A DNA stretch of 64,000 nt from Bacteroidota bacterium (GTDB lineage Bacteria > Bacteroidota > Rhodothermia > Rhodothermales > JBCDJV01), in contig JBCDJV010000007.1 of the NCBI GenBank assembly GCA_038747425.1, forward strand, positions 9,164-73,163, written 5' to 3'. Positions within the stretch are counted from its first letter, which is position 1. Each line of letters begins with the position of its first letter. The position numbers and the translations under genes are program-made. A model generated the notes under the pieces. It was not told where the DNA came from, ran no database searches, and saw only the letters and a list, made by a program, of their open reading frames with translations. Positions 1 to 19,733 of the stretch are shown here, in pieces.

Positions 1-593
1 AAAGCATGATGCCACGGGAGCACCGAAAGCAACCGGGCCTGCTCGTCTAGCGCCAGCGCGGGCTCGTGGCTGTGCAGCACCGACATCACGTTGGCGTCGG
101 ACAGGGCCACCCACCGGGGGGCCTTCGTCGTGCCCGAGGTGTGGAGCAGGAACCGGACGTCTGGCTCCGGCGCGTGCTGCATGGTCCGTACGGCGATCGG
201 CTCGGTGCGGGGCCCCGCGCTGCCTTCCGGCACCACCGTGTGCGCGCCCGCACTCAAGGCGATGGCGCACCGGGCATCCACGAGGGTCAGGACGTCCTCG
301 GCGTCAGCCCGTGGGCTGGCCAGCGCCACCGTCAAGCCTTCCCAGAGCGAAGCCAGGAGGACCTGCAAAAACGCCGCTGACGGCGGCAGGGCCACGACCA
401 CCCGATCTCCAGGCTGCAGCCCCATAGCCCGGAACGCCTGGGTCCACCGCCGCATGCCGGTCCACACCGAGGCGGCCGGGATGATCCCATCGGCAAACAG
501 GGACAGCGGATGGGGCTGCCCGTTGAACCGGGGATAGATCCAGGCGCGCCAGGCGTCGCGCGGGTGAGCGGGTGAAGACACAGGCGAAGTCAT
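1..593 (-). CDS. AMP-dependent acyl-CoA ligase, N-terminal part (gene runs off the left window edge); candidate p-coumarate:CoA ligase (pcl-like) for the PYP chromophore
   Basis: Absent from the ORF track because the window edge truncates it. My own minus-strand translation from the ATG at 593 reads MTSPVSSPAHPRDAWRAWIYPRFNGQPHPLSLFADGIIPAASVWTGMRRWTQAFRAMGLQPGDR...DVRFLLHTSGTTKAPRWVALSDANVMSVLHSHE with no in-frame stop. LLHTSGTTKAPR matches the AMP-binding (T/S)SG(T/S)TGxPK motif of adenylate-forming enzymes. It lies about 200 nt downstream of pyp on the same strand. The pcl role is inferred from that adjacency. Confidence 0.75.
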   Translation of the reverse strand, partial: MTSPVSSPAHPRDAWRAWIYPRFNGQPHPLSLFADGIIPAASVWTGMRRWTQAFRAMGLQPGDRVVVALPPSAAFLQVLLASLWEGLTVALASPRADAEDVLTLVDARCAIALSAGAHTVVPEGSAGPRTEPIAVRTMQHAPEPDVRFLLHTSGTTKAPRWVALSDANVMSVLHSHEPALALDEQARLLSVLPWHHA

Positions 594-796
594 AGGGCGT
601 GGCACAGGGAAAAGCAGCACAGACGCTACCCGCCTGTTCAGAGGCCGGTAGCGTCTGTGGAAGAAGACCGGGGCTTGGCGTAGCCCCGTGCGAATCAGAG
701 CAGGTAGCCACCGAGGCGGCCTGACCGCAGGGAGACGCAGCGAGCCCGTGGACGCACGATGAGCGTGCGGGCTCAAGATGCTCCACGGTGCCTCAT

Positions 797-1165
797 CTAC
801 GCCTTCTTGACGAGCACGTAGTTGGACTGCGTGGCCGGGTCCCGGTACAGGTGCACCTGTACGTTGGTCGGCTTCATCTTGTAGGTGAAGGTGTAGCGGA
901 ACTGGTCGTTCATCGAACCACCGCTCACCCCGTTCTTGAAGCGACCCAGGAAGAGGCGGTTGTTCGTGCACGGAGCCACGTCCGTGAAGAAGTTCTTGCC
1001 GACACACTCGGCCGGGGAAAAGCCCGACATGTTGGACTCGTAGTGGTTGTAGAACTGAACAACCCCGTTGTCGTCAACTTTGACGACGCCAAAGTCCAAG
1101 GTATTCAGCTGCATTTCGGGCATGCGGCTCAGCCCTTCAAGCGTTCCAGGGGGTACGAAGCTCAT
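797..1165 (-). CDS. pyp: photoactive yellow protein (PYP), PAS-fold blue-light photoreceptor
   Basis: The 122-aa ORF aligns along its length with Halorhodospira PYP as I recall it. GKNFFTDVAPCTNN corresponds to GKNFFKDVAPCTDS and contains the chromophore Cys69. YTFTYKMKPTNVQVHL corresponds to YTFDYQMTPTKVKVHM. The Tyr42 and Glu46 equivalents are present (FYNHYES). Confidence 0.93.
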   Translation of the reverse strand: MSFVPPGTLEGLSRMPEMQLNTLDFGVVKVDDNGVVQFYNHYESNMSGFSPAECVGKNFFTDVAPCTNNRLFLGRFKNGVSGGSMNDQFRYTFTYKMKPTNVQVHLYRDPATQSNYVLVKKA

Positions 1166-1261: not shown

Positions 1262-3046
1262 CTAGGCACGGCTGTAGAGGTCGCGGAGTTGAAGCTCCAT
1301 GTTTTGCATCATCTCGACGGCATCGTCGACGGTCACGGCGCCGACCGTGGCCAGCCGTTCGCGTTCCGCGTAGACACTCACCAATTGTTGTTCCATATTC
1401 TTCAGCAGGGCGATGGCATCGTCCGCTCCGGGGATGCCGTGGTCGGCCAGCTTGCGCTGTTCGGCGCGCAGCGTGCCCAGCTCCACCTCCATGCTGAACA
1501 CCTTCTCCAGCATCTCGGCGTTGGGGAGGGCCCCATCTCCGTGCGGCTGATCGAACTGGCGCTCGCGGTACAGGTCAACGAGCTGGGCTTCCATGCCTTG
1601 GATCATGTCCACCGCCTCGCCGGGCGTAGCCACACCGACCTGCTGGAGATGGCTGAGCTGCTCGTACAAGTCAACCAGCTGCTCCTCCATGTTCTTGAGT
1701 TGATCGGCGGCGGCCTGGACCGAGCTGAGTCCAAGGGTGCCCAGGTTTCCAACGTCTTCGTAGAGGGCCACGAGCTGCTGCTCCATGCTCTCGATCTGCA
1801 GTACCGCATCGGCTGGGGAGGCCAGGCCGCGTTCCATCAGGGGCTTCTGCTCCTCGTAGAGCGCGATGAGCTGCTCCTCCATGCTGTCGAGCTGGGCGGC
1901 CACCTCTTCGGGGTTGGACAGGCCGCGCACCGCTAGGGCCGTTTGGTCTTCGTAGAGCGCGATGAGCTGCTGCTCCATGCTCTGAATCTGGTCGGCCAGG
2001 ACCTCGGCCCCCGGAAGTCCTTGCTCGGTGATGGACTGTTGTTCCTGGTACAGGGTCACGAGCTGCTGCTCCATGCTCTCGAGCTGTGCAGCGGCTTCAC
2101 TCATGGACGTGAGCCCGCGGCCCGTCAGCGCTTGCTTCTCCTCATACAGGTCGGCCAGTTGGGCCTCCAAGCTTTGTAGCTGCTCCAAGGCCTCTTCGGC
2201 CGAGAACAGCCCGCGCGTTGAGAGCAGGGCCTGCTGGGCGTACAGGTCGGACAGTTGGGCCTCCATGCTCTCCATGGCCAGCGCCTGCTCGTTGCCGGAG
2301 CTCTGCTGCTGCTGGTACAGTTCGATGAGCTGGCCTTCCATGCTGCTGACCATCTCCACGGCTTCAGCTACGGTGGCCACTCCCACCGTTCGCAGCTGCT
2401 GCTGCTGCGCGTACAAGTCGGCCAGCTGCTCGGCCATGCTGTCTACCTGCGCTTGTAGTGCGGCCGCCCGGTCGGCATCGGAAGCTCCTTCACTACGCTC
2501 CTGGTAGAGGGCCACGAGCTGCTGCTCCATGTTGGCCAGCGAGGTGTCCAGGTTTCGGATGTGCTCAATGGCATCCTCAAACGAAGCCAGCCCGTACGTG
2601 GTCAGCTTTCCTTGCTGCTCGTACAGGTCCTTCAGCTGCTCCTCCATGTTGGTGAGCGCGTCCTGAAGGGCCGCCTCGGAGCCCGGGTTCGATGAACGCT
2701 CCTCGAGGCGAGTTATCCGGTCACCGAGTCCTTCGAGCGACCGCTGGAGCGTGCGGAGTGCTCCTTCGATGGTCGACAGCGAATCCTGCAGATCTGCCCG
2801 CGTCAGTGCGGGCGTGGGGTGCGCTTGAGCATAATCCGTCATGTCCCTTGATGGCGAAGCGGGTTGCTGTAGCTGAGCCTCTAAGTCACGCACCCTCTTG
2901 ATGATGGAGGATGCCGAGGCAACCCCCAGTTCTCGAGCCAGCAACTGCCGCTCGCGCTCGACGGCGCGAAGAATCTGCTGGACGCGGCCGGCCTCGTTGG
3001 GCGTGCCGAATTCCGTCTCAGAGGTCGTGACTGGCTGAGTCTGCAT
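1262..3046 (-). CDS. 594-aa repeat protein with about 15 tandem copies of a ~32-residue helical repeat (G[LV]xSxxEAxxQLxSMEQQLxxLYxxQ); function unknown
   Basis: Long ORF with GC-rich third codon positions. The motif [SN]ME[EQ]QLxxLY recurs 15 times, mostly at exactly 32-residue spacing. It is acidic and Q/E/L-rich with predicted helical character. It lies directly upstream of pyp on the same strand. Confidence 0.85.
   Translation of the reverse strand: MQTQPVTTSETEFGTPNEAGRVQQILRAVERERQLLARELGVASASSIIKRVRDLEAQLQQPASPSRDMTDYAQAHPTPALTRADLQDSLSTIEGALRTLQRSLEGLGDRITRLEERSSNPGSEAALQDALTNMEEQLKDLYEQQGKLTTYGLASFEDAIEHIRNLDTSLANMEQQLVALYQERSEGASDADRAAALQAQVDSMAEQLADLYAQQQQLRTVGVATVAEAVEMVSSMEGQLIELYQQQQSSGNEQALAMESMEAQLSDLYAQQALLSTRGLFSAEEALEQLQSLEAQLADLYEEKQALTGRGLTSMSEAAAQLESMEQQLVTLYQEQQSITEQGLPGAEVLADQIQSMEQQLIALYEDQTALAVRGLSNPEEVAAQLDSMEEQLIALYEEQKPLMERGLASPADAVLQIESMEQQLVALYEDVGNLGTLGLSSVQAAADQLKNMEEQLVDLYEQLSHLQQVGVATPGEAVDMIQGMEAQLVDLYRERQFDQPHGDGALPNAEMLEKVFSMEVELGTLRAEQRKLADHGIPGADDAIALLKNMEQQLVSVYAERERLATVGAVTVDDAVEMMQNMELQLRDLYSRA
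1265..2660. repeat. tandem 96-bp-period coding repeat array inside the 594-aa ORF
   Basis: On the plus strand the string CCATGC(T) within GAGCTGCTGCTCCATGCTCTC-like units starts at 1783, 1879, 1975 and 2071, which is exactly 96 bp apart. The same unit continues with divergence across the array. Confidence 0.85.
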
Positions 3047-3536: not shown

Positions 3537-3938
3537 ATGCTACAGCAACTTGAAGACGCCCTGGTCAACGGGGACCTCGACGACCGGTGGACTAGCTCCC
3601 TGGAGACCTGGGACACGACCCCTGTGGAGCGCGCCCAGGCGCTGGCGCTGGTGGCGCAGCTACGCGACCAGTTCATCGAAGCGGCCCGCGACATTGAGGA
3701 CGAGGATGAGCTGCCCACCACGGCGGCGTTGGAGTACATCCAGCTGAAGTCCCGGTGGTACCGTCTCAACACCCAGATGAACTACCAGCTGTTCAAACAG
3801 GGTGAAGCGTCTCCGGACGTCCAGTACCAGGGCACGCTGGTGAGCCAGCTCCTGGCAGAGATCGAGCCGTTCATCGATCCCCAGGATGTGAGCCGGATCA
3901 CGCAATTCCTGACGGATCCGATCATCGTGCCTGTCTGA
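3537..3938 (+). CDS. hypothetical acidic protein (133 aa), divergent from the repeat-protein/pyp unit and upstream of gvpA
   Basis: Internal ATG of track ORF 3459..3938, preceded by AAGGAGG. The sequence begins MLQQLEDALVNGDLDDRWTSSLETWD. I recognise no family. Confidence 0.55.
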   Translation: MLQQLEDALVNGDLDDRWTSSLETWDTTPVERAQALALVAQLRDQFIEAARDIEDEDELPTTAALEYIQLKSRWYRLNTQMNYQLFKQGEASPDVQYQGTLVSQLLAEIEPFIDPQDVSRITQFLTDPIIVPV

Positions 3939-4861
3939 GTTTGGTGCCGCGCCCTGACTGAGGGGTGATGCACACCGCTGGGTATCCCCGTTCGGACTCG
4001 GCCTTCAGCACAGCCAAGGCTGTCCTGTTTGGCCGGGCCATGCCACGGGGCGCATCGACCGCTCATGACGAGCTGGGCCCAACGACGGGGACCCTCTGGC
4101 GTGCTAGCCCGCCGGGCGACGGAGACGAGCGCTCTGCTCAGCCCGTCCCGGTTGACACCTAGCCCTGCTACGCTCCGAGACCCTCGCGCCATGCAGGCGA
4201 GGTGGCGGCTTGGCCGTAGCTGCGGCGCACGCCACCCGACAGACTCGGCCTCTCCTGACTTCGACCGGAGTCAGCCTCCTTTTGAAGGATCCTACCCCAA
4301 GCGGGGCCCGGCGCTCTCCATGCGTCCGGGCCCCGCACTGCGTTGGAGCTTGGCCCGCGAACGCATTCGTCCGTCGCCGCTCTGCTCCGGTGATCAGAGG
4401 TGGCCTCTAGCGCCGGACCTGGGCGCATGGAGCAGACGGAGGCGGCACGCTGCTGGGCGGCTCAGCGGCCCCCGACCGACCACCCCGCACCCCCCCATGG
4501 GGCCGACTTGTGCCGGGCGTTACCGCATCCCTCTCAGGGCCCCAGCGTCCGTGGGCCCATGCGGCAAACCTGGGCGCCTCTCCGGAAACTATTGCCCTCC
4601 ACGGACAACCTCTCCGCCCCTTCAGCCAGGCCCTCAGCGCAGCGTCTGCTTAAGAAAGGTCCAGTCATAGCCGATATAGGAGGCGAGCATGCATCTGTAG
4701 GTGCCTTCTAGCACGTCCCGACCACTCGTTCTGACACCGTCAAGGGCCTCGTGTAGGTTGGCATCATCATTGAATATGCTTGCGTAACGCCCCCAATGGC
4801 ATCGCGCCCACACTGGGTGTTTATCTGTTCAACCTGTTTACCTATCACAGAGAGGGTCATC

Positions 4862-5065
4862 ATGGCTATCGAAAAGTCAGTCGCTTCCAGCAGCCTTGCT
4901 GAGGTCGTCGACCGCATCCTGGACAAAGGCATCGTGGTCGATGCCTACGCTCGCGTCTCCCTCGTGGGGATCGAGCTCATCGCCATCGAGGCGCGTGTCG
5001 TCGTCTCGGGCGTCGAGACGTACCTCAAGTACGCTGAGGCCATCGGCCTGACGGCCACGGCCTAA
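4862..5065 (+). CDS. gvpA: gas vesicle structural protein GvpA
   Basis: [63 protein letters not shown] is a canonical 67-aa GvpA. The ATG at 4862 lies inside track ORF 4796..5065. Confidence 0.97.
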
Positions 5066-5173: not shown

Positions 5174-5740
5174 ATGTCACGTCCTTCTACTTCCTATCGC
5201 GAAGCCCTGCGTGCCGATGTAGCACGTCTGCTTGAGGACGTGGCCACGACTCGTAAGGCCCAGGCTGAGGCGCTACGCGCAGAGCGTACCGCGTTCACCG
5301 AAGCCCTGCGCACCTCGGTGTCCAGCGACCTGTCCTCCGAGCGCAGCCGCGTCAAAGACGAGGTCCAGTCGCTCCTGGAGGACATCCGAGCCGAACATGC
5401 GACCCGCCGGGACACCCTGCGCACCGCTCTGCGCACCTTCCGTACGGCGCTCCGCAACGAGCGCGGCAGCGCGTCGGCCTCGGCGCTGGAAGTGGCCTCG
5501 GAGATCGGACAGGCCGCGCCTGCTCCGGCCCCGCCGAGTCCGCCCGTCGAGGAAAACCTGCTTCGCATCAAAGGGATCGGGCCCAACACCCTGGAGCGCC
5601 TGCGTCAAGCGGGCATCCACTCCTTTGCTGACCTGGCGGCCAGCACCCCAGCCGACCTTCATCAGGCGCTAGGCGGCTACGCCAAGCTGATCAACGTGGA
5701 GGAGTGGCTCTCCGAAGCCCGCAGATACGCCCAATCCTAG
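5174..5740 (+). CDS. hypothetical protein with an internally duplicated helical N-terminal region and a C-terminal helix-hairpin-helix motif; sits in the position often held by gvpC
   Basis: ATG at 5174 within track ORF 5144..5740. It contains repeated EALRA/EALRT/TALRT motifs. DVARLLEDV...EALRT parallels EVQSLLEDI...TALRN about 47 residues later. The C-terminus LLRIKGIGPNTLERLRQAGIHSFADLA is a typical HhH (GIGP) motif. Confidence 0.7.
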   Translation: MSRPSTSYREALRADVARLLEDVATTRKAQAEALRAERTAFTEALRTSVSSDLSSERSRVKDEVQSLLEDIRAEHATRRDTLRTALRTFRTALRNERGSASASALEVASEIGQAAPAPAPPSPPVEENLLRIKGIGPNTLERLRQAGIHSFADLAASTPADLHQALGGYAKLINVEEWLSEARRYAQS

Positions 5741-5870: not shown

Positions 5871-6581
5871 ATGCACCTTGGTCAACGCAAGATTCGCTCG
5901 GCTGGCCGCTCCAGCGGCAGCATCGAGATCACCCTGCCCGTGCCTCTACAGGCCCTGGAGGGGGTGCCTTGTCGGATCAACCTACGGGACGGCGTCCGGC
6001 CGGAGGTGGTCCTCCAACCGGACCTCTCTGAGGCTCAGACCCTGTTCCAGACGCTCTGGTCGCACCTCCGCACGGGGCTGCGCTCCGTAGACGACATCGG
6101 CGACTTCGCGCTGAGCCAGTTCACGGTGGCCCTGCTGCCGGTGCGCTTCTGGCAGGAACGGCCGCCCCTCTTCTACACGGACGCCTTGCTGACCCTGCAT
6201 GGCACCGGCGATGAGCGCGCCGACGCCCTCACGCGCCTGTTGGCCGGTCTCGGCGTAGGGGCCGCTCAGGCCCTTGGCTTCAGCGGAGCCCTCGGCCTAG
6301 GCCTGGGCGATGCCCTGAGCTTCGTGGCCACAGGCCGCTCCGCCGGATGGGGCGCTGAGTTCGAACGCGGGTTGGCGCACCGTTTGTACTGGGGTGAGAC
6401 CGCACCCGCCTACACGCCCCTGGACGAGGCCTTCTGGCAGGAGGCGGCTCCGCGCCTGGTCCACCTGACCGACGTGTTCTGGTCCTGGCACACCGACCCC
6501 GATCGCTACGACACCGACCGTGAACGCTGGTACCGCGCCCTGACCGCCGAGATGCGCTACGCGCCCCTGCCGATTTCCTAA
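5871..6581 (+). CDS. hypothetical protein (236 aa), possible N-terminal AbrB/SpoVT-like swapped-hairpin domain
   Basis: The ORF lies in the operon orientation between gvpA and gvpN. The N-terminus RKIRSAGRSSGSIEITLPVPLQALEGVPCRINLRDGVRPEVVLQP resembles the AbrB/MazE pattern; this is a weak judgement by eye. Confidence 0.55.
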   Translation: MHLGQRKIRSAGRSSGSIEITLPVPLQALEGVPCRINLRDGVRPEVVLQPDLSEAQTLFQTLWSHLRTGLRSVDDIGDFALSQFTVALLPVRFWQERPPLFYTDALLTLHGTGDERADALTRLLAGLGVGAAQALGFSGALGLGLGDALSFVATGRSAGWGAEFERGLAHRLYWGETAPAYTPLDEAFWQEAAPRLVHLTDVFWSWHTDPDRYDTDRERWYRALTAEMRYAPLPIS

Positions 6582-6629: not shown

Positions 6630-7604
6630 ATGGATGTGCTAGACCCCGAAGCCCCCACTGCCGTGGCCGCCGCCGCCCCCGGCGCCATCCACGTCCAGCC
6701 GCGTCCCGACTTCGTCGAGACCCCGGCCGTGCAGGCGCTCACCGAGCGGTCCCTGACCTACCTGTGGGCGGGCTTTCCCATTCATTTTCGCGGACCCGCC
6801 GGGACCGGCAAGACCACGCTGGCTCTCCACGTGGCCGCACACATCGGCCGGCCCGTCATGTTCATGACAGGCGACGAAGAGCTGTCCTCGGCGGACCTCA
6901 TCGGGTCGGAGAGCGGGTACCGCTTCAAGCGGGTCGTGGACCGGTTCATCCACACCGTCACCAAGTACGAAGAAGATGCGACCCAGCGCTGGGTGGACCA
7001 ACGCCTCACCATTGCTTGTCGCCAAGGCTACACGCTCGTCTACGACGAGTTCACCCGCTCTCGGCCTGAGGCCAACAACCCGCTGCTGACGGTCCTGGAG
7101 GAACGCGTGCTGATCCTCCCCAAGACGAACCGGGAGGAGGCCTACATTCGGGTCCATCCTGAATTCCGGGCCATCTTTACCAGCAACCCGGAGGAATATG
7201 CCGGGGTGCACCGCTCCCAGGATGCCCTGTGCGACCGGATGGTGACCATCGACCTCGACTTCAGCGACCCGGACACCGAACGCTCGATCACCGTCTCGCG
7301 CTCGGGCATTACCGCCGATCGGGCCGAGCGCATCGTGCAGCTCGTGCGCGCCTTCCGAGACCAAGGCACCCCGATGCAACTGCCCACCCTGCGGGCCTGC
7401 ATCATGATCGCCCGGGTGGCCCACATGCAACAGATCGAGCCCGCCAGCACCGATGAGCGCTTCGTCCAGCTGTGCTACGACGTGCTGGCCTCCAAGACGA
7501 CCTCCACCATGGTCTCCGTCCCGGAGCGCCAGAAGGTCTACGACCAACTCCATCGCCTCATCCATCTACACTGCGACGCCCAGACGGCGCCCTCTAGCCT
7601 ATGA
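6630..7604 (+). CDS. gvpN: gas vesicle AAA+ ATPase GvpN
   Basis: Walker A FRGPAGTGKTTLALHVA and Walker B-like TLVYDEFTRSRPE. The length (324 aa) and overall pattern fit GvpN (AAA_5 type). It lies within the gvp cluster. Confidence 0.9.
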   Translation: MDVLDPEAPTAVAAAAPGAIHVQPRPDFVETPAVQALTERSLTYLWAGFPIHFRGPAGTGKTTLALHVAAHIGRPVMFMTGDEELSSADLIGSESGYRFKRVVDRFIHTVTKYEEDATQRWVDQRLTIACRQGYTLVYDEFTRSRPEANNPLLTVLEERVLILPKTNREEAYIRVHPEFRAIFTSNPEEYAGVHRSQDALCDRMVTIDLDFSDPDTERSITVSRSGITADRAERIVQLVRAFRDQGTPMQLPTLRACIMIARVAHMQQIEPASTDERFVQLCYDVLASKTTSTMVSVPERQKVYDQLHRLIHLHCDAQTAPSSL

Positions 7605-9349: not shown

Positions 9350-9601
9350 ATGGGCTTCTTCACCACGCTCCTGACCTTTCCCGTCTCCGGGCCACTGCAC
9401 GGGGTGCGATGGATCGCACAGCACATGGCCGAGCAGGCGGAGCAGGAGTTTTACGACCCCGCTGTCATCAAAGAGCAGCTCCGCGCCCTTGAATACAGCT
9501 ATGAGCTCGGCGAAGTCGACGACGACACCTTCGACGCCCTCGAAGACGCCCTCATGGAACGCCTTGAAGCCAGCCGCGCGCAGCCCAAGCGTACCCCCTG
9601 A
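9350..9601 (+). CDS. gvpG: gas vesicle protein GvpG
   Basis: MGFFTTLLTFPVSGPLHGVRWIAQHMAEQAEQEFYDPAVIKEQLRALEYSYELGEVDDDTFDALEDALMERL matches the GvpG pattern. The start could alternatively be 9335. Confidence 0.85.
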   Translation: MGFFTTLLTFPVSGPLHGVRWIAQHMAEQAEQEFYDPAVIKEQLRALEYSYELGEVDDDTFDALEDALMERLEASRAQPKRTP

Positions 9602-10336: not shown

Positions 10337-10340
10337 CCCT

Positions 10341-12524: not shown

Positions 12525-12528
12525 CCCC

Positions 12529-13581
12529 ATGCCGCTCTACCTGCATGGCCTGACCCCCGTGGGCGGGCCCGCGCTGTACCGCGTCCCCGACGCCGACGGC
12601 CCCGTCTACACCATCGAGCACCAGGGCATGGCCGCCGTGGTGCGCCCCACGGCCCAGCGCACGTACCAGCACCTCGAACGCCGCGAGGCGCTGCTTCACC
12701 TGGTGCTGCACCAGCGGGTGGCCGAGGCCATCCAGGCCGAGACCCCCCTCCTGCCCGTCCAGTTCGGCACCGTGCTGGACAACGAAGAGCAGGTGCGCAT
12801 GCTGCTGAGCCTGGGAGCCGATCGTTTTGCAGAAGCACTCCGGCAGTTGGACGGCCTCGTGCAGATGGAGATCACCGTGCTCTGGGATCTGGAGCACGTG
12901 TTTGCCGAGATCCGCCATGAGCCCGCAGTGGCGGCCCTCCAGCACAACCTCACGACGTGGCCAGCGGACGAGCAAGAGGCCGGTCGCGTCCAGCTCGGCC
13001 AGATTGTAAAAGAGCGCCTGGAGTACCGCCGCGCCCGCCTCAAAGCGCCCATCGACCAAGCTCTTCAGGCCGTAGCCACGGCGTCGGAGGCGCTACCGAT
13101 CCTGGACGATCGGATGGTCACGGGTCTGACGCTGCTGCTCAACGATCACCAGGAAGACGAGCTCGATGACGCGCTGACCACCCTCGACGCCGCCCATGGG
13201 GATCTGCTGACGTTCAAGTGCGTGGGACCCATGGCGCCGCACCGCTTTGCCCAGGTTCGGGTGGAGATGGTGGACGGGGCTATCCTCAACCAAGCCCGGG
13301 CCTTGCTGCGCCTGCCAGCGGGCCCGACCACGCTGGCCGACGTCAAGCGCGCCTACCGCCTCCGAGCCGGCGAGCTGCACCCAGACCATAATCCGTCCAC
13401 AGACGAAGCCACGATGCAGGCCCTGCATGATGCCTTCACGCTCATCACCACCTTCGTGGAAGGTCGGCTGGGCGCGCCCGCGCCTGGTGAGGCGCCGCAC
13501 TGCTCACTCGATCTGGCGGCTCAGCCTCACCTCCTGTACCATCTGGACCTGTCGGTACGCCGCTCAGCCTTGGCGGCCTAG
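12529..13581 (+). CDS. GvpF/GvpL family protein (paralogue 2) fused to a C-terminal DnaJ J-domain
   Basis: ATG at 12529, 5 nt after the Cdc48 stop. The N-terminal part carries the GvpF/L pattern (LYLHGL, GMAAVVRP, HQRVAEAIQAETPLLPVQFGTVL, GPMAPHRF). The C-terminal part LADVKRAYRLRAGELHPDHNPSTDEATMQALHDAFTLI is a J-domain, with the HPD tripeptide at nt 13378-13386. Confidence 0.88.
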   Translation: MPLYLHGLTPVGGPALYRVPDADGPVYTIEHQGMAAVVRPTAQRTYQHLERREALLHLVLHQRVAEAIQAETPLLPVQFGTVLDNEEQVRMLLSLGADRFAEALRQLDGLVQMEITVLWDLEHVFAEIRHEPAVAALQHNLTTWPADEQEAGRVQLGQIVKERLEYRRARLKAPIDQALQAVATASEALPILDDRMVTGLTLLLNDHQEDELDDALTTLDAAHGDLLTFKCVGPMAPHRFAQVRVEMVDGAILNQARALLRLPAGPTTLADVKRAYRLRAGELHPDHNPSTDEATMQALHDAFTLITTFVEGRLGAPAPGEAPHCSLDLAAQPHLLYHLDLSVRRSALAA

Positions 13582-13850: not shown

Positions 13851-14747
13851 ATGAACCACGACGTACAACGTATTCTCGAGACCGTGCTGAGCCAGCATGG
13901 CGGCGATATCGATGCGTTCATCGAATCGTGCCGTCAGGAGGTCCTGCGTGACCTCAAGGAACGCCTGAAGGGCGAGATGCGCGCCTCGATCTTTGCTCAG
14001 ATCCGGGCGGGTCTGGACGAGGGGGGCACGCCCCCGCCCCCAACGCCGCCGCCGTCTACGCGGCCCATCGCCCTGCCGCCCCCGGCTCCGTCCGCCTCGT
14101 TCCGTACCGAGTCCATGCGGGCAGCTCTTTCCGAGACCCCGGAAGAATCGTCCGCGCCCCCGCCTCCACCCGAGGCGCACGCCGAGACAGAGCACACCCA
14201 GGAGACACCCGACCACGGGTCTCACGACCATGCGCCGCCCGGCCATGTGCCGCCCGACCATGGGGCGCACGCCGAGGAGACCGCTCCCCCAGAGGGACCC
14301 GGCGACCGCGAGCCGTCCGTTGAGGACGTCCGTGTTGAGGCCGTCCACGCCCAGGGGGCTCAGCCAGGCTTGCCCGACTCCGAGGAGCCGCCTGCGGAGC
14401 TGATGGCCGCCGGCGAGCCTTCCACGGAAGGCGTCTACACCCAGGAGGTGTACACCGCGCCAGACCCGGCCCCTGAGGGCGTCCCAGCGGACCTGGATGC
14501 CGAGATCAGCGACCTGTACGCCGCCGAAACTCGTCCGCCTGCACACCCGTGGGTCCATGCGGCCACGCAGACGCCGGCTCCGAGCGATCCGCAGGAAGAC
14601 GTACCCGCTCACCCCACGGCCGACGACGAGCTCGACGACGACATTCTGCGGGAGATTGCCGCCATCCGGCAGCAGATCTCGAAGAATGAGCAGCTCCTGA
14701 GTCAGCTCAAGCCTTTCTTCGCGGAGGAACATCCGCCGAACTCCTGA
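13851..14747 (+). CDS. hypothetical acidic Pro/His/Glu-rich, probably disordered protein (298 aa) inside the gvp operon
   Basis: It has a structured-looking N-terminus (ILETVLSQHGGDIDAFIESCRQEVLRDLKERLKGEM) and C-terminus (DDILREIAAIRQQISKNEQLLSQLKPFF). These flank a low-complexity stretch (PPPPTPPPS...HTQETPDHGSHDHAPPGHVPPDHGAHAEE). The stop lies 5 nt before the next gene. Confidence 0.6.
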   Translation: MNHDVQRILETVLSQHGGDIDAFIESCRQEVLRDLKERLKGEMRASIFAQIRAGLDEGGTPPPPTPPPSTRPIALPPPAPSASFRTESMRAALSETPEESSAPPPPPEAHAETEHTQETPDHGSHDHAPPGHVPPDHGAHAEETAPPEGPGDREPSVEDVRVEAVHAQGAQPGLPDSEEPPAELMAAGEPSTEGVYTQEVYTAPDPAPEGVPADLDAEISDLYAAETRPPAHPWVHAATQTPAPSDPQEDVPAHPTADDELDDDILREIAAIRQQISKNEQLLSQLKPFFAEEHPPNS

Positions 14748-14751: not shown

Positions 14752-15852
14752 ATGACGAGGCCTGTGCGGGTGGACCGCCTACCGGACATCGAACGCTCCC
14801 CCGCCACCCCGGCCTCTCGCCTGCACAGCCAAGCTCTAAGCGGCGTGGACATGTACCCTGATCGATCCATCGACCAAGCCGCGCTCGTAGACGACGTGCT
14901 GTCGTTGCTTCGGCATCGGCTGCAGCCGCTTCTGATGGAGGGCTTCCTGCAGGCCGCGCTGGCGCACGTCCAGGCCGAGGCCGTACCGCCCAGCTCCCCG
15001 AGCGAGGCACCCGCCCTCCAGGGCGACGGGGCCGCCGCCATGGGGCTCTATGTGCTCGGCTTGGTACCTCGCGGTGCTCATCTGGTGCTGCCGGCCTCGG
15101 GTATGGAGCCTGGCCACCCCGTGACCACCAAGGCTTACCGGGGGCTGGAGGCCGTGGTGTGCCCCGTGACGCTGGAGGCCTTCGGACCCGATGCACAGCC
15201 CGCCCAGACTAACGACCTGACGTGGCTGGAGGCCATGGCCCAGCGCCACCAGCGCTTGCAGGAAGAGGTGCGCCGCGAGGGCACCACGCTGCTGCCCATG
15301 CGGTTTGGCACCATCTGCCACGACGAGCCGGGCCTGCTCACCTTTCTGGAGGCCCACCACGACGACTTCTTGCACACCTTGAGTGCCCTGCGCGGCATGC
15401 AGGAGTGGGGGCTCAAGGTGTTCTGCGATGACACCCGCTTCAACGAGCACGTCGAGCTCGCGCCTGACGTCCCTTCGCCGGATGGAGCCTCCGAGGGTAC
15501 CGCCTACTTCCTGCGCAAGAAGCACGCACAGGCCCGGGCCCAGGCGTACGCCCAACGCTTGGCGCTCTGCCTGGATGAGATCGACCATACCCTGCAGGCC
15601 CATGCTCAGGAAGCCGTGCGCAACGAGCCGCAGGAACCACGGTGGTCCGGCCATACGCTCCCCAACGTGCTGAATGCAGCCTACCTGGTGGGACGGGACG
15701 ACGAGCCGGCGTTCCTGCAGGCCGTCGACCGCTTGGTGGCCACCTATGCCCCGCTCGGACTCGAGGTGGTGCGCACAGGGCCTTGGCCGCCCTACCACTT
15801 TGCCCGGCTCGATGCGGACTCTTCCACCGACATTGTGCCCCCTTCGGCCTGA
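14752..15852 (+). CDS. GvpF/GvpL family protein (paralogue 3)
   Basis: GLYVLGLVPRG, GLEAVVCPV, HQRLQEEVRREGTTLLPMRFGTI and a C-terminal GPWPPYHF are present. The true start may be the ATG at 14851. Confidence 0.82.
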   Translation: MTRPVRVDRLPDIERSPATPASRLHSQALSGVDMYPDRSIDQAALVDDVLSLLRHRLQPLLMEGFLQAALAHVQAEAVPPSSPSEAPALQGDGAAAMGLYVLGLVPRGAHLVLPASGMEPGHPVTTKAYRGLEAVVCPVTLEAFGPDAQPAQTNDLTWLEAMAQRHQRLQEEVRREGTTLLPMRFGTICHDEPGLLTFLEAHHDDFLHTLSALRGMQEWGLKVFCDDTRFNEHVELAPDVPSPDGASEGTAYFLRKKHAQARAQAYAQRLALCLDEIDHTLQAHAQEAVRNEPQEPRWSGHTLPNVLNAAYLVGRDDEPAFLQAVDRLVATYAPLGLEVVRTGPWPPYHFARLDADSSTDIVPPSA

Positions 15853-15864: not shown

Positions 15865-16119
15865 ATGCCTACGCGCCCCCCCTCTGCCTTTTCGCTTGAG
15901 CAGGAAGTCACTCTGCTGGACCTGCTGGACCGGATCCTGGACAAAGGCATCGTGATCCAGGGCGACGTGACCATCTCCGTGGCCGACGTCGACCTCGTGT
16001 ACCTGGGCCTCAAGGCTGTCCTGGCTTCCGTGGACACGGTGGACCGGATGCGGGCCGTGTACCTGCCGCCTGAGAGCGCTCTGGCGCTCAAGCCCGCCGC
16101 CCTGCTGGACCTCGTCTAG
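15865..16119 (+). CDS. small GvpA/J/M/S-family gas vesicle protein (GvpS-like by position before gvpL/gvpK)
   Basis: [43 protein letters not shown] is a GvpA-like core in an 84-aa protein. Confidence 0.85.
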   Translation: MPTRPPSAFSLEQEVTLLDLLDRILDKGIVIQGDVTISVADVDLVYLGLKAVLASVDTVDRMRAVYLPPESALALKPAALLDLV

Positions 16120-16167
16120 CGCAGCCCCGTTTTCGTGCCCGGCCCGTGGGCGGACCGCCCCCGACGC

Positions 16168-16854
16168 ATGCTATATCTCTACGCCTTCTGCCGTCCACCG
16201 CTGCCGCCTGACGTGCCCGGGCTGCACAAGACGATGCTACGCGCCATCCCCGTGGGGGCCCTGGTGGCCGCCGTCAGCGACCTGGACACCCCGCCCTCTG
16301 CCGGCGCCCCCCATCTCTGGGCCCACGAGCACGCGGTGGAGACGCTCATGCAGACACGCCCAGTCCTCCCGGTGCGGTTCGGCACCATGCTGCACGATGC
16401 CGAGCACCTCCAGGCCGTGACGGCCCCACAGGAGGCGGCCATGCACGAGGCGTTGGCGCGCGTGGATGGACACGTCGAGCTCAGCGTGCGCGCCCTGGCG
16501 GCCGAGCCCCCCTTGCCGCCGGCGGAAGCGCCCCCGCGCACAGGCACAGACTACCTGCGCCAGCGTCAGGCCCAACTCAGCGCCGAACAGGCCGATCATC
16601 AGCAGGCCCAACAGCGAGCGGCCGCGTTGCATGCCCAGCTGGCCCCCCTGGCGGCCGACAGCACCTACGAGGCGCGCCGTACGGCCCGCATGGTGCTCAC
16701 CGGGGCGTACCTGGTCCCCGCTGACCAACAAGACGCCTTCCAAGACGCCGTGGCGGCGCTGCAGACCCAGCACCCTGACCTGGCATTCCTCTGCACAGGC
16801 CCATGGCCTCCGTACCACTTCACTCGCCTCGCCCTGACCACCCCTACGCCATGA
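16168..16854 (+). CDS. GvpF/GvpL family protein (paralogue 4)
   Basis: ATG at 16168 (the track starts at GTG 16135). MLYLYAFCRPP, GALVAAVSDL, HEHAVETLMQTRPVLPVRFGTML and a C-terminal GPWPPYHF are present. Confidence 0.82.
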   Translation: MLYLYAFCRPPLPPDVPGLHKTMLRAIPVGALVAAVSDLDTPPSAGAPHLWAHEHAVETLMQTRPVLPVRFGTMLHDAEHLQAVTAPQEAAMHEALARVDGHVELSVRALAAEPPLPPAEAPPRTGTDYLRQRQAQLSAEQADHQQAQQRAAALHAQLAPLAADSTYEARRTARMVLTGAYLVPADQQDAFQDAVAALQTQHPDLAFLCTGPWPPYHFTRLALTTPTP

Positions 16855-17222
16855 CCTCGACGAACCCGCCCTCCGCAGCCTCGCCCAAGATCCTCAGCGA
16901 GCAGGCCGACCTCCAGGCCTTCGTGGCCGAACTGGACCCGGTGCGCCAGGGGATCCTGCCCCCGCGCGTGGCCCTGGACCCCGACTCCGCCGATCAGGGG
17001 TTGGCCAAGCTCGTCCTCACCCTGATCGAACTGCTGCGCCAGCTGATGGAGCGTCAAGCGGTGCGCCGCATGGATGCGGGCAGCCTGACCGATGACGAAG
17101 TGGAGCGCCTGGGGCTCACCCTCATGAAGCTGGAAGGCCGGATTAAAGAGCTGCAGGCCCTTTTTGGTCTGGAAGAGGAAGAACTGAACCTGAGCCTGGG
17201 CCCCCTCGGCCGCTTGCTCTGA
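16851..17222 (+). CDS. gvpK: gas vesicle protein GvpK
   Basis: The start overlaps the preceding stop (ATGA at 16851-16854). LAKLVLTLIELLRQLMERQAVRRMDAGSLTDDEVERLGLTLMKLEGRIKEL is the conserved GvpK core. Confidence 0.9.
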   Translation: MTSTNPPSAASPKILSEQADLQAFVAELDPVRQGILPPRVALDPDSADQGLAKLVLTLIELLRQLMERQAVRRMDAGSLTDDEVERLGLTLMKLEGRIKELQALFGLEEEELNLSLGPLGRLL

Positions 17223-17345
17223 AACAATGCCCCCGGTACGGACACCCACATTCATGAAGAGGCGGTGGGGCCCTGCGGCAGCTCGCAACCAACCGAGGGC
17301 TCCATCGTTACAAGTTTCCCGATCGATACACGGACTTGTTGGCGC

Positions 17346-19733
17346 ATGGACATGGCTACGACGTTCCCGTTCACCCATCGACTGAGCCTGACGCCACTAG
17401 CGGCGTTCTGGCGCAGCAAGGCGGCCGACAAGGCCGATCCGCTCCACCAGTTTGCCCGCCAGATCGCCCGTGACCTGGACCGGGCCCCCGTCTTGGAGGG
17501 CCCCCTCGACGAGGTGTCGGTCCTCGATCCGCACTGGCCGCTCCTGGAGCGCATGATGATGGCCATCACCCCGCCCTCCTCCAAAGAGATCGCGGCGGTG
17601 GCCGTGAGCCAGCCCTTCTCGATGCGGCCGTTCTACACGACGCCGGCCTTCGACCGGCTGGGCATGAACCACACGTCTGAGGACGAGGTCGCCGCCGCGC
17701 TCAGCATGAGCACGGAGGCCCTGATGAGCCTGAAGGCCCTGCAAGCCTACTTCTGGGTACTCATCGAATGCTACGGCCTCGACCTGGACTTCGACCAGCA
17801 GTTCCCGCTCGTCTTGCCCATCACCGACGAAGAGACGGGCCTGCCGCGCTACTACAAGATCCGCATCAACCCCAGCTTCTGCGCCCTGCGCCACGAGGGC
17901 GACCTTCCGCCGCTCTCCCCAGCCGATCTGAACCGGCTCCTCGAAGAGCCCACCAACCTCGACGTTTGGAAAACGCTCCTGCCCCCAGACCAGTTTGTCT
18001 TCGAGGGCATCGTCATCTACGAGGGCATCGACATCACGGAGCAGCACCTGCTGTCCAAGCTCAAGGACGACCTGCTGAAGAAGGGGTCGATGACCACGCC
18101 TGGGCAGGTGAGCCATCTGCAGGAGCGCCTCCGCTCGCTGCTCCGCAAGCCGGACCTGGAGCTCGGCTTCATGGCCCTCACCTTTGGCGACCTGGAGATG
18201 GTGAGCGGAGCCACACCCATCGGGCGCAGCCTGCTGCTAGCCGATGGGCAGATGCCTGCCTGCCCGCTTCGCCATCAGTCCACGTATGCCAAAGCCCTCA
18301 AGGAAAGCAGAACGCAGCTCTTCCACGACCTGCAGACCTACGAGACCCAGAGTGGATTTGAGACCCTCTTGATGGAGCAGGGCTTCCGCAACCTGCTCCT
18401 GGCCCCCCTCTTCGATGGCGAACAGGTGATCGGCTTCCTGGAGCTGGCCTCGCCGAACCGGGGCGATATCAACGCCTTCAACGCGCGGCTGCTGGACGAT
18501 GTAGCGTCCGTCTTTGCCACGGCCATGTCACGGACGTTGGAGGACCGAGAAGACCGGGTGCAGGCCATCATCAAGGAAGAATACACGGCGCTCCACCCGG
18601 TGGTGGAGTGGCGCTTCCGCGAGGCCGCCCTGGCCCGTCTGGAGCGCATGGAGCGCGGCCACCGGGGCGAAGCCGAGTCCATCGTCTTCGAAGGGGTGCA
18701 CCCCCTCTACGGGCTGGCCGACATCCGTGGCTCCTCCACACGGCGCAATGCGGCCATTCAGGCGGACCTGGTGGAACAGGTGGGCTTGGCGCTCCTCGTC
18801 ATCGTGGAGGCCAGCACCCATCGCCACCTCCCCATCTTGGACGCGCTGGGCTACCGCCTGGGCCAGTACATCAGCGACATCGGGACCGGCCTCAGCTCCG
18901 GCGATGACCAGAGCGCGCTCGCCGTGCTGCGTCAAGAGCTGGAGCCGCTGTTCGACCACCTGGCCACCTTCGACCCCAGCGTCGAAGCTCGCATCCGGGC
19001 CTACAAAGACGCGCTGGACCCGGAGCTGGGGGTGGTCTACCGCCAGCGTAAGGCCTTCGAGGACAGCGTCATGCTGATCAACGACACGATCGGGCAGTTT
19101 ATCGATCAGCAGGAGGCCACCGCCCAGGGCATGTTCCCCCACTACTACGAGCGGTACAAGACCGACGGGGTGGACTACAACATCTACATTGGGCAGTCGC
19201 TCCTGCAACGGGGAGACTTTGACCCGATCTACTTGCGTAATCTGCGCCTCTGGCAGCTGATGATGACGTGCGGCGTGGCCTGGGAGATGGAGACGCTCAA
19301 GCCCTCCCTCCCCATGGAGCTGGACGTGGCGCACCTCATCCTCGTGCAGGACATCCCGCTCTCCATCCGCTTCCGCATGGACGAGAAGCAGTTCGATGTG
19401 GATGGCGCCTACAACATCCGCTACGAGATCGTCAAGAAGCGTATCGACAAGGCGCGCATCAAGGGCACCGGAGAGCGGCTCACGCAGCCTGGCTACCTGG
19501 CCATCGTGTATTCTCAGCCCGAGGAAGCCCGCGAGTATCTTCAGTACCTGGACTACCTGTCGGCCGCCAGCTACACGGAAGGCGAGATCGAGCACCTGGT
19601 CCTCGAAGACCTGCAGGGGGTGCAGGGCCTCCGCGCCCTCCGCGTCGCGATCGCGTCCACGAGCCCCGACGACTACTCGTCAATCGGCGCCGACCGGACG
19701 ATGCACATCGTGCAAACGCTGACAAACGCGTGA
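17346..19733 (+). CDS. large GAF-domain-containing protein (about 795 aa), last gene of the plus-strand gvp block; candidate sensor/regulator
   Basis: ATG at 17346 within track ORF 17265..19733. The central segment GFRNLLLAPLFDGEQVIGFLELASPNRGDINAFNARLLDDVASVFATAMSRT is GAF-like. I do not recognise the flanking N- and C-terminal regions. Confidence 0.75.
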   Translation: MDMATTFPFTHRLSLTPLAAFWRSKAADKADPLHQFARQIARDLDRAPVLEGPLDEVSVLDPHWPLLERMMMAITPPSSKEIAAVAVSQPFSMRPFYTTPAFDRLGMNHTSEDEVAAALSMSTEALMSLKALQAYFWVLIECYGLDLDFDQQFPLVLPITDEETGLPRYYKIRINPSFCALRHEGDLPPLSPADLNRLLEEPTNLDVWKTLLPPDQFVFEGIVIYEGIDITEQHLLSKLKDDLLKKGSMTTPGQVSHLQERLRSLLRKPDLELGFMALTFGDLEMVSGATPIGRSLLLADGQMPACPLRHQSTYAKALKESRTQLFHDLQTYETQSGFETLLMEQGFRNLLLAPLFDGEQVIGFLELASPNRGDINAFNARLLDDVASVFATAMSRTLEDREDRVQAIIKEEYTALHPVVEWRFREAALARLERMERGHRGEAESIVFEGVHPLYGLADIRGSSTRRNAAIQADLVEQVGLALLVIVEASTHRHLPILDALGYRLGQYISDIGTGLSSGDDQSALAVLRQELEPLFDHLATFDPSVEARIRAYKDALDPELGVVYRQRKAFEDSVMLINDTIGQFIDQQEATAQGMFPHYYERYKTDGVDYNIYIGQSLLQRGDFDPIYLRNLRLWQLMMTCGVAWEMETLKPSLPMELDVAHLILVQDIPLSIRFRMDEKQFDVDGAYNIRYEIVKKRIDKARIKGTGERLTQPGYLAIVYSQPEEAREYLQYLDYLSAASYTEGEIEHLVLEDLQGVQGLRALRVAIASTSPDDYSSIGADRTMHIVQTLTNA

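What the first reader, a model, noticed from the sequence alone, without database searches (positions are those of the whole stretch)
1..19733. Photoactive yellow protein and a chromophore-ligase candidate sit directly beside a ~15 kb gas-vesicle operon: candidate light-controlled buoyancy module
The sequence shows a bona fide PYP (797-1165, minus) followed on the same strand by an adenylate-forming ligase (593-1). These are the two parts needed to sense blue light and to activate p-coumarate. They lie about 3.7 kb from gvpA, and the gvp operon (4862-19733) is transcribed divergently. The operon ends in a GAF-domain protein. No histidine kinase, chemotaxis or c-di-GMP output gene lies nearby, so the gvp genes are the obvious candidate output. 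To my recollection a pyp/gvp neighbourhood has been noted before in Rhodobacter capsulatus and was never mechanistically resolved. Seeing it again in what looks like a Bacteroidota/Rhodothermota-type genome would argue for a real functional link rather than chance.
Basis: partly seen in the sequence, partly recalled or inferred. Interest (0 to 1): 0.85.

Follow-up and report, generated by a model that had tools for sequence, protein, structure and literature searches.

The report
Yellow-protein light sensor beside gas-vesicle genes
A complete blue-light sensor gene set (photoactive yellow protein plus the enzymes that make its pigment) sits just upstream of a gas-vesicle operon, in the position where related operons carry a sensor kinase and regulator; light-controlled buoyancy is therefore plausible but unproven, and the sensor's two conserved neighbour genes are better candidates for its long-sought signalling partners.

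Summary
Window 797-1165(-) encodes a genuine PYP with the Tyr42, Glu46 and Cys69 equivalents. Window 1-593(-) is the start of a 472-aa adenylate-forming ligase, and on the longer public contig a 517-aa aromatic ammonia-lyase follows it. Window 4862-19733(+) is a gvp operon ending in a GAF protein.

Of 84 other PYP lineages examined, two have gvp genes within 10 kb (a Planctomycetota MAG and a Rhodothermales MAG), each with a different geometry. None of 27 metagenome loci with the same gvp cluster type has PYP.

One is an acidic 32-aa-repeat protein (1262-3046, -), found in 44-51 of 79 loci. The other is a 133-aa helical protein (3537-3938, +), found in 56 of 79 loci. Elsewhere this second protein is fused to CheA-type kinases, and in one lineage to the repeat motif.

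Six related gvp clusters carry a PAS/GAF histidine kinase and an OmpR-type regulator directly upstream of gvpA. This window has neither, and the PYP cassette occupies that position.

I put about 0.4 on light control of gas vesicles here. The adjacency itself is already published for Rhodobacter capsulatus. The two PYP-linked families are absent from both surveys I read.

The parts
1..593 (-). N-terminal 197 aa of the p-coumarate-activating ligase candidate (pCL). The full protein is 472 aa on contig L001, and the ammonia-lyase gene lies beyond the window start.
   Evidence: Pfam AMP-binding at E 1.2e-12 for the fragment and 6.7e-37 for the full length. Homologues at 35% identity or more flank PYP in 35 of 79 loci.
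797..1165 (-). Photoactive yellow protein, 122 aa.
   Evidence: TIGR02373 gives 121.9 bits (cut-off 143.05), PDB PYP chains match at E 8e-30, and C66, E43 and Y39 are conserved.
669..688 (-). Terminator-like hairpin in the 203-nt gap between pyp and pcl. It may act as an attenuator.
   Evidence: Consensus scan only; weak evidence.
1262..3046 (-). REP594: an acidic protein with about 16 copies of a 32-aa repeat carrying the motif [LM]ExQLxxLY. It lies directly upstream of pyp on the same strand, 97 nt away.
   Evidence: describe the repeats. Relatives lie directly beside PYP on the same strand, upstream in nearly all (51 of 79 loci by tblastn). The motif is present in 44 of 79 loci against a background of 1e-5 per aa. 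Minimal forms are 58-59 aa. A single-sequence structure model shows 27-residue helices broken every 32 aa.
3537..3938 (+). orf3537: a 133-aa all-helical protein of an unannotated family linked to PYP. It is divergent from REP594 and points towards gvpA.
   Evidence: A strong ribosome-binding site precedes it. An HMM of the family hits 56 of 79 PYP loci and none of 27 gvp-only loci. The family has 332 representatives among 1.84 billion proteins. AlphaFold2 gives pLDDT 91.3 with six helices. No PDB fold match was found. No Pfam or NCBIfam match was found.
3939..4861 (.). A 923-nt G+C-rich gap with no convincing gene, between orf3537 and gvpA. Related clusters carry a histidine kinase and an OmpR regulator in the position upstream of gvpA.
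   Evidence: No ORF passes the codon-position G+C test. No Rfam match. No remnant of a kinase or regulator by tblastn.
4862..5065 (+). gvpA, the major gas-vesicle protein, 67 aa.
   Evidence: Pfam Gas_vesicle at E 4.3e-15. It is 75-83% identical to gvpA in related clusters.
5174..5740 (+). Helix-hairpin-helix/DUF4332 protein, conserved in this cluster type.
5871..6581 (+). Cluster-specific protein of unknown function, 236 aa.
   Evidence: No Pfam match. It is 46-54% identical in 18 related loci.
6630..7604 (+). gvpN, an AAA+ protein.
   Evidence: TIGR02640 gives 370.6 bits against a cut-off of 266.8. Pfam AAA_5 also matches.
7601..7960 (+). Cluster-specific protein of 119 aa.
   Evidence: Conserved in related loci. 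No family match.
7994..8566 (+). gvpH/Hsp20-like gene.
8563..9345 (+). gvpF/L.
   Evidence: Pfam GvpL_GvpF at E 3.9e-68.
9350..9601 (+). gvpG.
   Evidence: Pfam GvpG at E 1.3e-23.
9632..9892 (+). gvpO.
9980..10336 (+). gvpJ-like gene of the GvpA family.
10254..12524 (+). CDC48-type double AAA+ ATPase of the gvp cluster. The start codon is uncertain.
   Evidence: TIGR01243 gives 895.9 bits against a cut-off of 802.65.
12460..13581 (+). gvpF/L paralogue with a weak DnaJ-like stretch.
13851..14747 (+). Uncertain ORF of 298 aa.
   Evidence: No family match and no relatives in other clusters.
14752..15852 (+). gvpF/L paralogue.
15865..16119 (+). Small GvpA/J-family protein.
16135..16854 (+). gvpF/L paralogue.
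16803..17222 (+). gvpK.
17265..19733 (+). An 822-aa protein with a single GAF domain and no recognised output domain. It is the last gene of the operon.
   Evidence: No homologue was detected at the sequenced 3' ends of the gvp clusters in L072 or L112.

Best explanation
The left end of the window is a portable blue-light receptor cassette. Its genes are orf3537 (+), and on the opposite strand REP594, pyp, pcl and tal; tal lies just off the window.

From established knowledge of the H. halophila pyp-pcl-tal operon, the lyase makes p-coumarate from tyrosine, the ligase activates it, and it is attached to PYP Cys66. Blue light then changes the PYP conformation.

I infer that PYP signals by protein contact to the two conserved partner proteins. 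One is the acidic repeat protein encoded directly upstream. The other is the helical orf3537 domain, which in other lineages is built into CheA-type kinases.

In this genome the cassette occupies the position directly upstream of gvpA where related gvp operons carry a PAS/GAF histidine kinase and an OmpR-type regulator. The most likely local output is therefore light modulation of gas-vesicle formation. This would be a use specific to this lineage, not the conserved function of this PYP group.

Sub-claim probabilities: cassette composition 0.9; REP and orf3537 as PYP partners 0.7; gvp as the output here about 0.4.
For: Cassette. The order PYP, pCL, TAL is confirmed on L001.

Conservation of the two neighbours. 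REP relatives lie directly beside PYP on the same strand, upstream in nearly all, in 51 of 79 loci by tblastn. The motif is found in 44 of 79 loci against a background of 1e-5 per aa. The orf3537 domain is found in 56 of 79 loci. These loci span Rhodothermales, Ignavibacteria, Planctomycetota, Armatimonadota, Gemmatimonadota, Myxococcota, Bdellovibrionota, Leptospirales and Alphaproteobacteria.

Fusions. The orf3537 domain is fused to Hpt, HATPase_c and CheW-like domains. REP and orf3537 are fused in one 336-aa protein in L112.

Link to gvp. A kinase and an OmpR regulator lie directly upstream of gvpA in six related clusters, and both are absent from the whole window. The pyp/gvp adjacency recurs in L072 and L112/L113 with different geometries and in Rhodobacterales. 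Two of 84 lineages compares with a rough chance expectation of 0.04-0.22.
Against: Only 2 of 84 other PYP lineages have gvp genes within 10 kb. None of 27 same-type gvp loci has any part of the cassette.

The cassette contains no DNA-binding or other recognised output domain.

The fusions of the orf3537 domain point to a Che-type phosphorelay, which could be encoded anywhere in the genome.

The chance estimate depends on an assumed fraction of PYP genomes that carry gvp, and it assumes random gene placement. Accessory genes tend to cluster in flexible regions.

This window was chosen because of the adjacency, so the adjacency here cannot itself count as evidence.

No transcription data or protein-contact data exist.
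Confidence: 0.45

Rival explanations
1. The two modules are independent neighbours. The PYP cassette signals to a target encoded elsewhere, such as a chemotaxis-like kinase or receptor as in most relatives. The gvp operon is controlled by something else. The two lie together because both are mobile accessory genes of bacteria living in lit water, and such genes gather in flexible genome regions.
For: The cassette occurs without gvp in 82 of 84 other lineages. The gvp cluster type occurs without the cassette in 27 of 27 loci. In relatives PYP lies beside MCP genes or CheA-like genes (PMC9664959). The geometry differs in each case of adjacency. The cassette has no DNA-binding protein.
Against: The adjacency is seen more often than random placement predicts. 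The usual kinase/regulator pair is missing from exactly the position the cassette occupies. No Che, kinase or regulator gene lies in the 64 kb.
Confidence: 0.4
2. REP594 is a GvpC-like outer gas-vesicle protein (GvpC has 33-aa repeats). On this reading pyp is co-transcribed with a gas-vesicle structural gene.
For: REP594 has about 16 tandem 32-aa helical repeats, is acidic and lies next to a gvp cluster.
Against: There is no match to the Pfam GvpC repeat model or to any other model. Relatives as short as 58 aa lie directly upstream of PYP in 44-51 of 79 genomes that have no gvp genes nearby. None occurs in the 27 gvp-only loci.
Confidence: 0.03
3. The PYP homologue is not a p-coumarate photoreceptor. 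It would instead be a redox or other PAS sensor, as proposed for some PYP-like proteins.
For: The score is below the TIGR02373 cut-off, and T50 and R52 are replaced.
Against: Cys69, Glu46 and Tyr42 are all kept. A ligase and an aromatic ammonia-lyase lie immediately downstream. The nearest relatives include the Salinibacter group, where a PYP has been characterised (PMC9664959).
Confidence: 0.05

Closest known systems
Rhodobacter capsulatus SB1003 pyp locus next to a gvp cluster (Kyndt et al. 2004, Biochemistry 43:1809; also Loktanella sp. SE-62, PMC3646047)
   Same: A single-domain PYP lies close to a gas-vesicle gene cluster, and the link has never been tested functionally.
   Different: The phylum differs (a Bacteroidota/Rhodothermota-type MAG against Alphaproteobacteria). 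This PYP is closest to the Salinibacter/Leptospira group, not to Rc-PYP. I could not obtain the R. capsulatus sequence, so neither the gene order nor the presence of REP or orf3537 homologues there was compared.
Halorhodospira halophila pyp-pcl-tal operon
   Same: The same three genes in the same order, with the chromophore enzymes downstream of pyp.
   Different: Here a repeat-protein gene precedes pyp and a divergent orf3537 gene accompanies it. Identity to H. halophila PYP is only 40%.
Rc-PYP and its PYP-binding protein PBP (RCAP_rcc01067; Kim et al., bioRxiv 10.1101/2021.06.01.446672)
   Same: A small protein of unknown family, encoded next to pyp, binds PYP in a light-dependent way. REP and orf3537 are likewise small conserved neighbours of pyp. 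Several short REP relatives have N-terminal helices followed by strand-like segments, which matches the description of PBP.
   Different: The PBP sequence is given only as an image, so homology could not be tested. orf3537 is all-helical, which does not match the description of PBP.
Clade B PYPs next to chemoreceptors that lack sensor domains (Xing, Gumerov and Zhulin 2022, PMC9664959)
   Same: These are the nearest PYP relatives. Chemotaxis-type neighbours are seen in my loci too: MCP genes in L112 and L117, and CheA-like genes in L040, L048 and L119.
   Different: This window has no chemotaxis gene. The REP and orf3537 families are not mentioned in that survey or in Dohmen et al. 2025 (PMC12826048).
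gvp clusters of the same gene order preceded by a PAS/GAF histidine kinase and an OmpR regulator (metagenome loci L087, L089, L094, L095, L103, L108)
   Same: The same order from gvpA through the CDC48 gene and beyond, with 57-70% GvpN identity.
   Different: The two-component pair upstream of gvpA is absent here, and the PYP cassette lies in its position.
GvpC
   Same: Tandem helical repeats of about 32-33 residues, encoded next to gvp genes.
   Different: There is no sequence match, and the REP family follows PYP rather than gvp.

Membership tests
Photoactive yellow protein (PYP) | Cys69 for the thioester link to p-coumarate | tested here: met
   C66 aligns with Cys69 and is invariant across 18 sequences.
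Photoactive yellow protein (PYP) | Tyr42 and Glu46, which hydrogen-bond to the chromophore | tested here: met
   Y39 and E43 align with them.
Photoactive yellow protein (PYP) | Score above the curated cut-off of TIGR02373 | tested here: not met
   The score is 121.9 bits against a cut-off of 143.05, although this is by far the best model at E 1.6e-35. The cut-off was set on proteobacterial PYPs. The PAS_PYP model of Xing et al. was not available.
Photoactive yellow protein (PYP) | Full-length similarity to solved PYP structures | tested here: met
   E 8e-30 over residues 11-121 against chain 1otd_A, and 33 PYP chains matched in all.
Photoactive yellow protein (PYP) | Binds p-coumarate, absorbs near 446 nm and has a photocycle | not testable with these tools
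   This needs expression together with the ligase and lyase, followed by spectroscopy.
pyp-pcl-tal chromophore operon | An adenylate-forming ligase and an aromatic ammonia-lyase encoded next to pyp | tested here: met
   L001 has PYP, then a 472-aa AMP-binding protein, then a 517-aa Lyase_aromatic protein, all on one strand.
pyp-pcl-tal chromophore operon | Substrate specificity: tyrosine for the lyase and p-coumarate for the ligase | tested here: inconclusive
   The lyase matches histidine ammonia-lyase family models best but below their cut-offs, and the ligase matches only generic models. The assignment rests on context: orthologues flank PYP in 23-35 of 79 loci.
Gas-vesicle gene cluster | gvpA together with gvpN, F/L, G, J, K and O | tested here: met
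   GvpN is above the equivalog cut-off.
Dedicated light-to-buoyancy module (PYP functionally coupled to gvp) | Conserved co-location of pyp and gvp across genomes | tested here: not met
   Two of 84 other PYP lineages have the adjacency, and none of 27 same-type gvp loci does. The adjacency recurs but is not conserved.
Dedicated light-to-buoyancy module (PYP functionally coupled to gvp) | Occupies the regulatory position of the gvp operon | tested here: met
   A kinase and an OmpR regulator lie upstream of gvpA in six relatives. Both are absent here, and the cassette is in that position. This is positional evidence only.
Dedicated light-to-buoyancy module (PYP functionally coupled to gvp) | Gas-vesicle formation depends on light and on pyp | not testable with these tools
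   This needs a culture or a heterologous reconstruction.
GvpC (tested for REP594) | Matches the GvpC repeat model and occurs together with gvp clusters | tested here: not met
   No Pfam match. The family follows PYP rather than gvp.
Rc PYP-binding protein PBP (tested for REP594 and orf3537) | Sequence homology to RCAP_rcc01067 | not testable with these tools

The most novel reading that the evidence does not exclude
REP (the [LM]ExQLxxLY repeat protein) and the orf3537 helical domain are the missing signal transducers of single-domain PYPs. In most lineages they connect PYP to CheA-type kinases. In this bacterium the same trio has replaced the kinase/regulator pair of a gvp operon, so that blue light sets buoyancy. 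This would be a form of phototaxis without flagella.
Probability: 0.2. Interest if true: 0.85.

Novelty: new variant of a known kind. Interest (0 to 1): 0.6.

Why it matters
The protein that receives the PYP signal has remained largely unknown despite decades of work on PYP as a model photoreceptor. Two recent genome surveys looked only at neighbours with Pfam annotation.

This locus led to two unannotated families that accompany PYP in most of the 79 genomes examined. They are fused to each other in one lineage and to CheA-type kinases in others. That gives concrete, clonable candidates for binding tests.

The pyp-gvp adjacency now appears in at least four lineages, and here it coincides with loss of the operon's usual two-component regulator. 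This turns a twenty-year-old anecdote from R. capsulatus into a specific hypothesis that can be tested.

Tried and rejected
- **REP594 as GvpC.** Rejected, because the family follows PYP and not gvp.
- **orf3537 as a CheW or Hpt domain.** Single members match no Pfam model. In the fusion proteins the CheW and Hpt matches lie outside the orf3537 domain. The family has no conserved histidine.
- **Word-indexed homologue search with orf3537 alone.** It found only the query itself. The profile search found 41 proteins, none with an informative annotation and none from R. capsulatus.
- **PBP sequence.** Not retrievable. Kyndt 2004 is not in the paper library.
- **Shared operator-like repeats** between the REP/orf3537 and gvpA upstream regions. 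Only short matches at chance level.
- **Promoter and terminator scan.** Uninformative for this phylum.
- **Rfam on 1-22000.** No match.
- **Remnant of a kinase or regulator** in the 923-nt gap or elsewhere in the window. None found.
- **ORF 4029-4670 called on one public contig.** Its composition is Arg/Pro-rich and atypical, it fails the codon-position G+C test, and it has no relatives. I treat it as non-coding.
- **Pseudo-alignment of shifted repeats for structure prediction.** The aligner restored the true overlaps, so a single sequence was used instead.

Full report
**Source and gene map**

The window matches a MAG labelled 'Bacteroidota bacterium' (GCA_039197235.1, contig JBCCUG010000034.1 = L001) and two Logan assemblies. 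G+C is 61-70% throughout, with no compositional island. A codon-position G+C screen and Pfam/NCBIfam scans give the following gene map for 1-19733.

- Minus strand: pcl (593-1, running off the window), pyp (1165-797), and a 594-aa repeat protein, here called REP594 (3046-1262).
- Plus strand: a 133-aa gene, here called orf3537 (3537-3938), followed by a 923-nt gene-free gap.
- Plus strand, gvp operon: gvpA (4862-5065), an HhH protein, an unknown, gvpN, an unknown, a gvpH-like gene, gvpF/L, gvpG, gvpO, a gvpJ-like gene, a CDC48-type AAA gene, gvpF/L, an uncertain ORF, gvpF/L, a small GvpA/J-family gene, gvpF/L, gvpK, and an 822-aa GAF protein ending at 19733.

- **PYP.** It is 40% identical to the H. 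halophila protein and keeps the equivalents of Tyr42, Glu46 and Cys69. It matches solved PYP structures at E 8e-30. It hits TIGR02373 at E 1.6e-35, although below that model's curated cut-off.
- **Ligase and lyase.** The ligase fragment is the start of a 472-aa AMP-binding protein. On L001 a 517-aa aromatic ammonia-lyase follows it directly.
- **gvp genes.** GvpN and the CDC48 ATPase exceed their curated cut-offs.
- **Rest of the window.** It holds housekeeping genes: polyphosphate kinase, GlmS, DeaD, a MacB/FtsX protein, a ClpB/ClpC-type (Clp/Hsp100) ATPase, GlgC and others. No kinase, response regulator, chemotaxis gene or c-di-GMP gene is present.

**Is the pyp/gvp adjacency conserved?**

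PMC3646047, citing Kyndt et al. 2004, states that the gvp clusters of R. capsulatus SB1003 and Loktanella SE-62 lie close to a PYP gene. Two recent PYP surveys do not mention gas vesicles (PMC9664959; PMC12826048).

I scanned one genome per species with a PYP profile and kept 79 loci with up to 10 kb on each side. Median locus length is 19.7 kb, and 67 loci are at least 10 kb. tblastn with all the window proteins found gvp genes in only one of them. That locus is L072, a Planctomycetota MAG, where orf3537-REP-PYP-pCL-TAL is followed by a convergent gvp cluster whose CDC48 gene is 55% identical to the one here.

Look-ups of six of the closest PYP homologues gave one more case. The fifth (P0004, L115) lies on a 3.3-kb contig that is too short to judge.

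- **Positive.** P0006 is 61% identical and comes from a Rhodothermales MAG and a microbial-mat metagenome (L112/L113). There, TAL is followed on the opposite strand by an MCP gene, a REP-orf3537 fusion gene, gvpF/L and the CDC48 gene.
- **Negative.** P0005, P0015, P0017 and P0024 have no gvp genes nearby.

The tally is two of 84 other lineages. A rough chance expectation is 0.04-0.22. It assumes that 5-30% of PYP genomes carry gvp, genomes of 4 Mb, and random gene placement. The adjacency is therefore rare, but probably more frequent than chance, and it has a different geometry each time.

In the reverse direction, a GvpN-based scan of metagenomes returned 27 loci. Those long enough to show it have the same gene order as here. 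None contains PYP, REP, orf3537, the ligase or the lyase. Five of these loci have 5-8 kb of sequence upstream of gvpA.

**What is conserved beside PYP**

*REP594.* It has about 16 copies of a 32-residue unit with the motif [LM]ExQLxxLY, and it is strongly acidic (101 Asp/Glu against 39 Lys/Arg). A single-sequence model gives 27-residue helices broken every 32 residues, with pLDDT 75.6.

- Relatives range from 58 to 1225 aa. They lie directly beside PYP on the same strand, upstream in nearly all, in 51 of 79 loci by tblastn.
- The strict motif occurs in such an upstream ORF in 44 of 79 loci. Elsewhere in the loci it occurs 12 times in 1.18 million residues.
- Because the family follows PYP in genomes without gvp, and is absent from the gvp-only loci, the resemblance to GvpC repeats is superficial.

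*orf3537.* It has a strong ribosome-binding site and no Pfam or NCBIfam match.

- An HMM built from 31 relatives finds the domain in 56 of 79 PYP loci and in none of the 27 gvp-only loci.
- A profile search of 1.84 billion representative proteins finds only 332 members. That is a family about as small as PYP itself.
- AlphaFold2 with 41 sequences gives a confident bundle of six helices (pLDDT 91.3). It has no significant PDB fold match.
- In 23 loci the domain lies in an ORF of at least 400 residues. Of 20 multidomain members scanned, 9 carried Hpt, HATPase_c, H-kinase_dim or CheW-like domains, i.e. CheA-type architecture, with the orf3537 domain at either end; the other 11 had no Pfam match outside the domain.
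- In L112 a REP motif and the orf3537 domain are fused in one 336-aa protein. Such a fusion argues that the two work together.

Ligase orthologues (35 of 79 loci) and lyase orthologues (23 of 79 loci) complete the cassette.

**The regulatory position upstream of gvpA**

In six related gvp clusters (L087, L089, L094, L095, L103, L108), the genes directly upstream of gvpA, read in the same direction, are a (GAF-)PAS-HisKA-HATPase_c kinase and/or an OmpR-type response regulator. Both were identified in L087, L089, L094 and L108; in L095 and L103 only the regulator was seen. tblastn with these proteins finds nothing in the 64-kb window, not even a remnant in the 923-nt gap. Here orf3537 and the rest of the PYP cassette occupy that position.

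It is positional evidence only. The cassette has no DNA-binding protein, and the GAF protein at the end of the operon has no recognisable output domain. No GAF-protein homologue was detected at the sequenced 3' ends of the L072 and L112 clusters.

**Mechanism**

*Shown by sequence.* The locus holds a complete chromophore-synthesis and photoreceptor set, two partner families conserved with PYP, and a gvp operon that lacks its usual two-component input.

*Inferred.*
- PYP signals by light-dependent contact with REP and/or orf3537.
- In many relatives that signal enters a CheA-type kinase.
- In this genome the trio may act on the adjacent gvp operon.

I put 0.9 on the cassette assignment, about 0.7 on REP and orf3537 being PYP partners, and about 0.4 on gvp being the output here. 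The main rival (0.4) is that the two modules are independent accessory neighbours and the real output lies elsewhere in the genome.

**Comparison with what is known**

The closest precedent for the adjacency is R. capsulatus. The closest for the operon is H. halophila pyp-pcl-tal. The closest PYP relatives are the Salinibacter/Leptospira group, which Xing et al. place in clade B and find next to chemoreceptors that lack sensor domains.

The only experimentally supported PYP partner is R. capsulatus PBP. It is a 142-aa protein encoded next to pyp, predicted to have N-terminal helices followed by strands. Several short REP relatives have that layout, and orf3537 does not. The PBP sequence was not obtainable, so homology remains untested.

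**Verdict**

The adjacency is real but already known in kind, and it is not a conserved feature of either module. The reading as a light-controlled buoyancy module is plausible and now better motivated, but it is unproven. The more general result is a conserved five-gene PYP cassette with two undescribed partner families. Interest 0.6; new variant of a known kind.

Noticed in passing
window 20663-21376 (-) and 19786-20634 (-): A PycTM-type (Pycsar) two-transmembrane effector gene lies next to a metallo-beta-lactamase-fold gene, convergent with the end of the gvp operon. No pyrimidine cyclase gene was recognised nearby.
   Followed up: partly
L045 8708-10333; L047 9283-10955 and 18043-19007; L053 6159-7836 and 14921-15552 onward: Salinivenus- and Longibacter-type genomes carry tandem arrays of 3-5 PYP paralogues next to very long REP proteins of up to 1225 aa. 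In all, 14 of 79 loci have more than one PYP gene.
   Followed up: partly
L045 11373-11969 (-); L047 11999-12535 (-); L049 10641-11243 (-); L053 8871-9407 (-): An OmpR-type response regulator, 36-39% identical to those upstream of gvpA in gvp-only clusters, lies just downstream of the PYP arrays in halophilic Rhodothermales.
   Followed up: no
L112 10338-11348 (-); L113 10183-11229 (-): A single protein fuses a REP motif to an orf3537 domain. It lies between gvpF/L and a Cache-HAMP-MCP chemoreceptor gene.
   Followed up: yes
L087 3679-6431; L089 4197-7512; L094 1916-5101; L108 3818-7113: Related gvp clusters carry a (GAF-)PAS histidine kinase and an OmpR regulator directly upstream of gvpA. 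This appears to be a dedicated two-component control of gas-vesicle genes.
   Followed up: yes
window 12460-13581 (+): One GvpF/L paralogue has a C-terminal stretch with a weak DnaJ-domain match (E 3.4e-4, below the cut-off).
   Followed up: no
window 669-688 (-): A G+C-rich hairpin followed by a T-rich tail lies in the 203-nt gap between pyp and pcl. It could lower ligase and lyase expression relative to PYP.
   Followed up: no
window 47918-49858 (+): A lamin-tail-domain protein carries a CHU_C type IX secretion signal, consistent with a Bacteroidota/Rhodothermota-type host.
   Followed up: no
window 55019-58678 (-): A 1219-aa protein has only a partial DUF4175 match. A long ORF on the opposite strand, with similar third-position G+C, overlaps it.
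   Followed up: no
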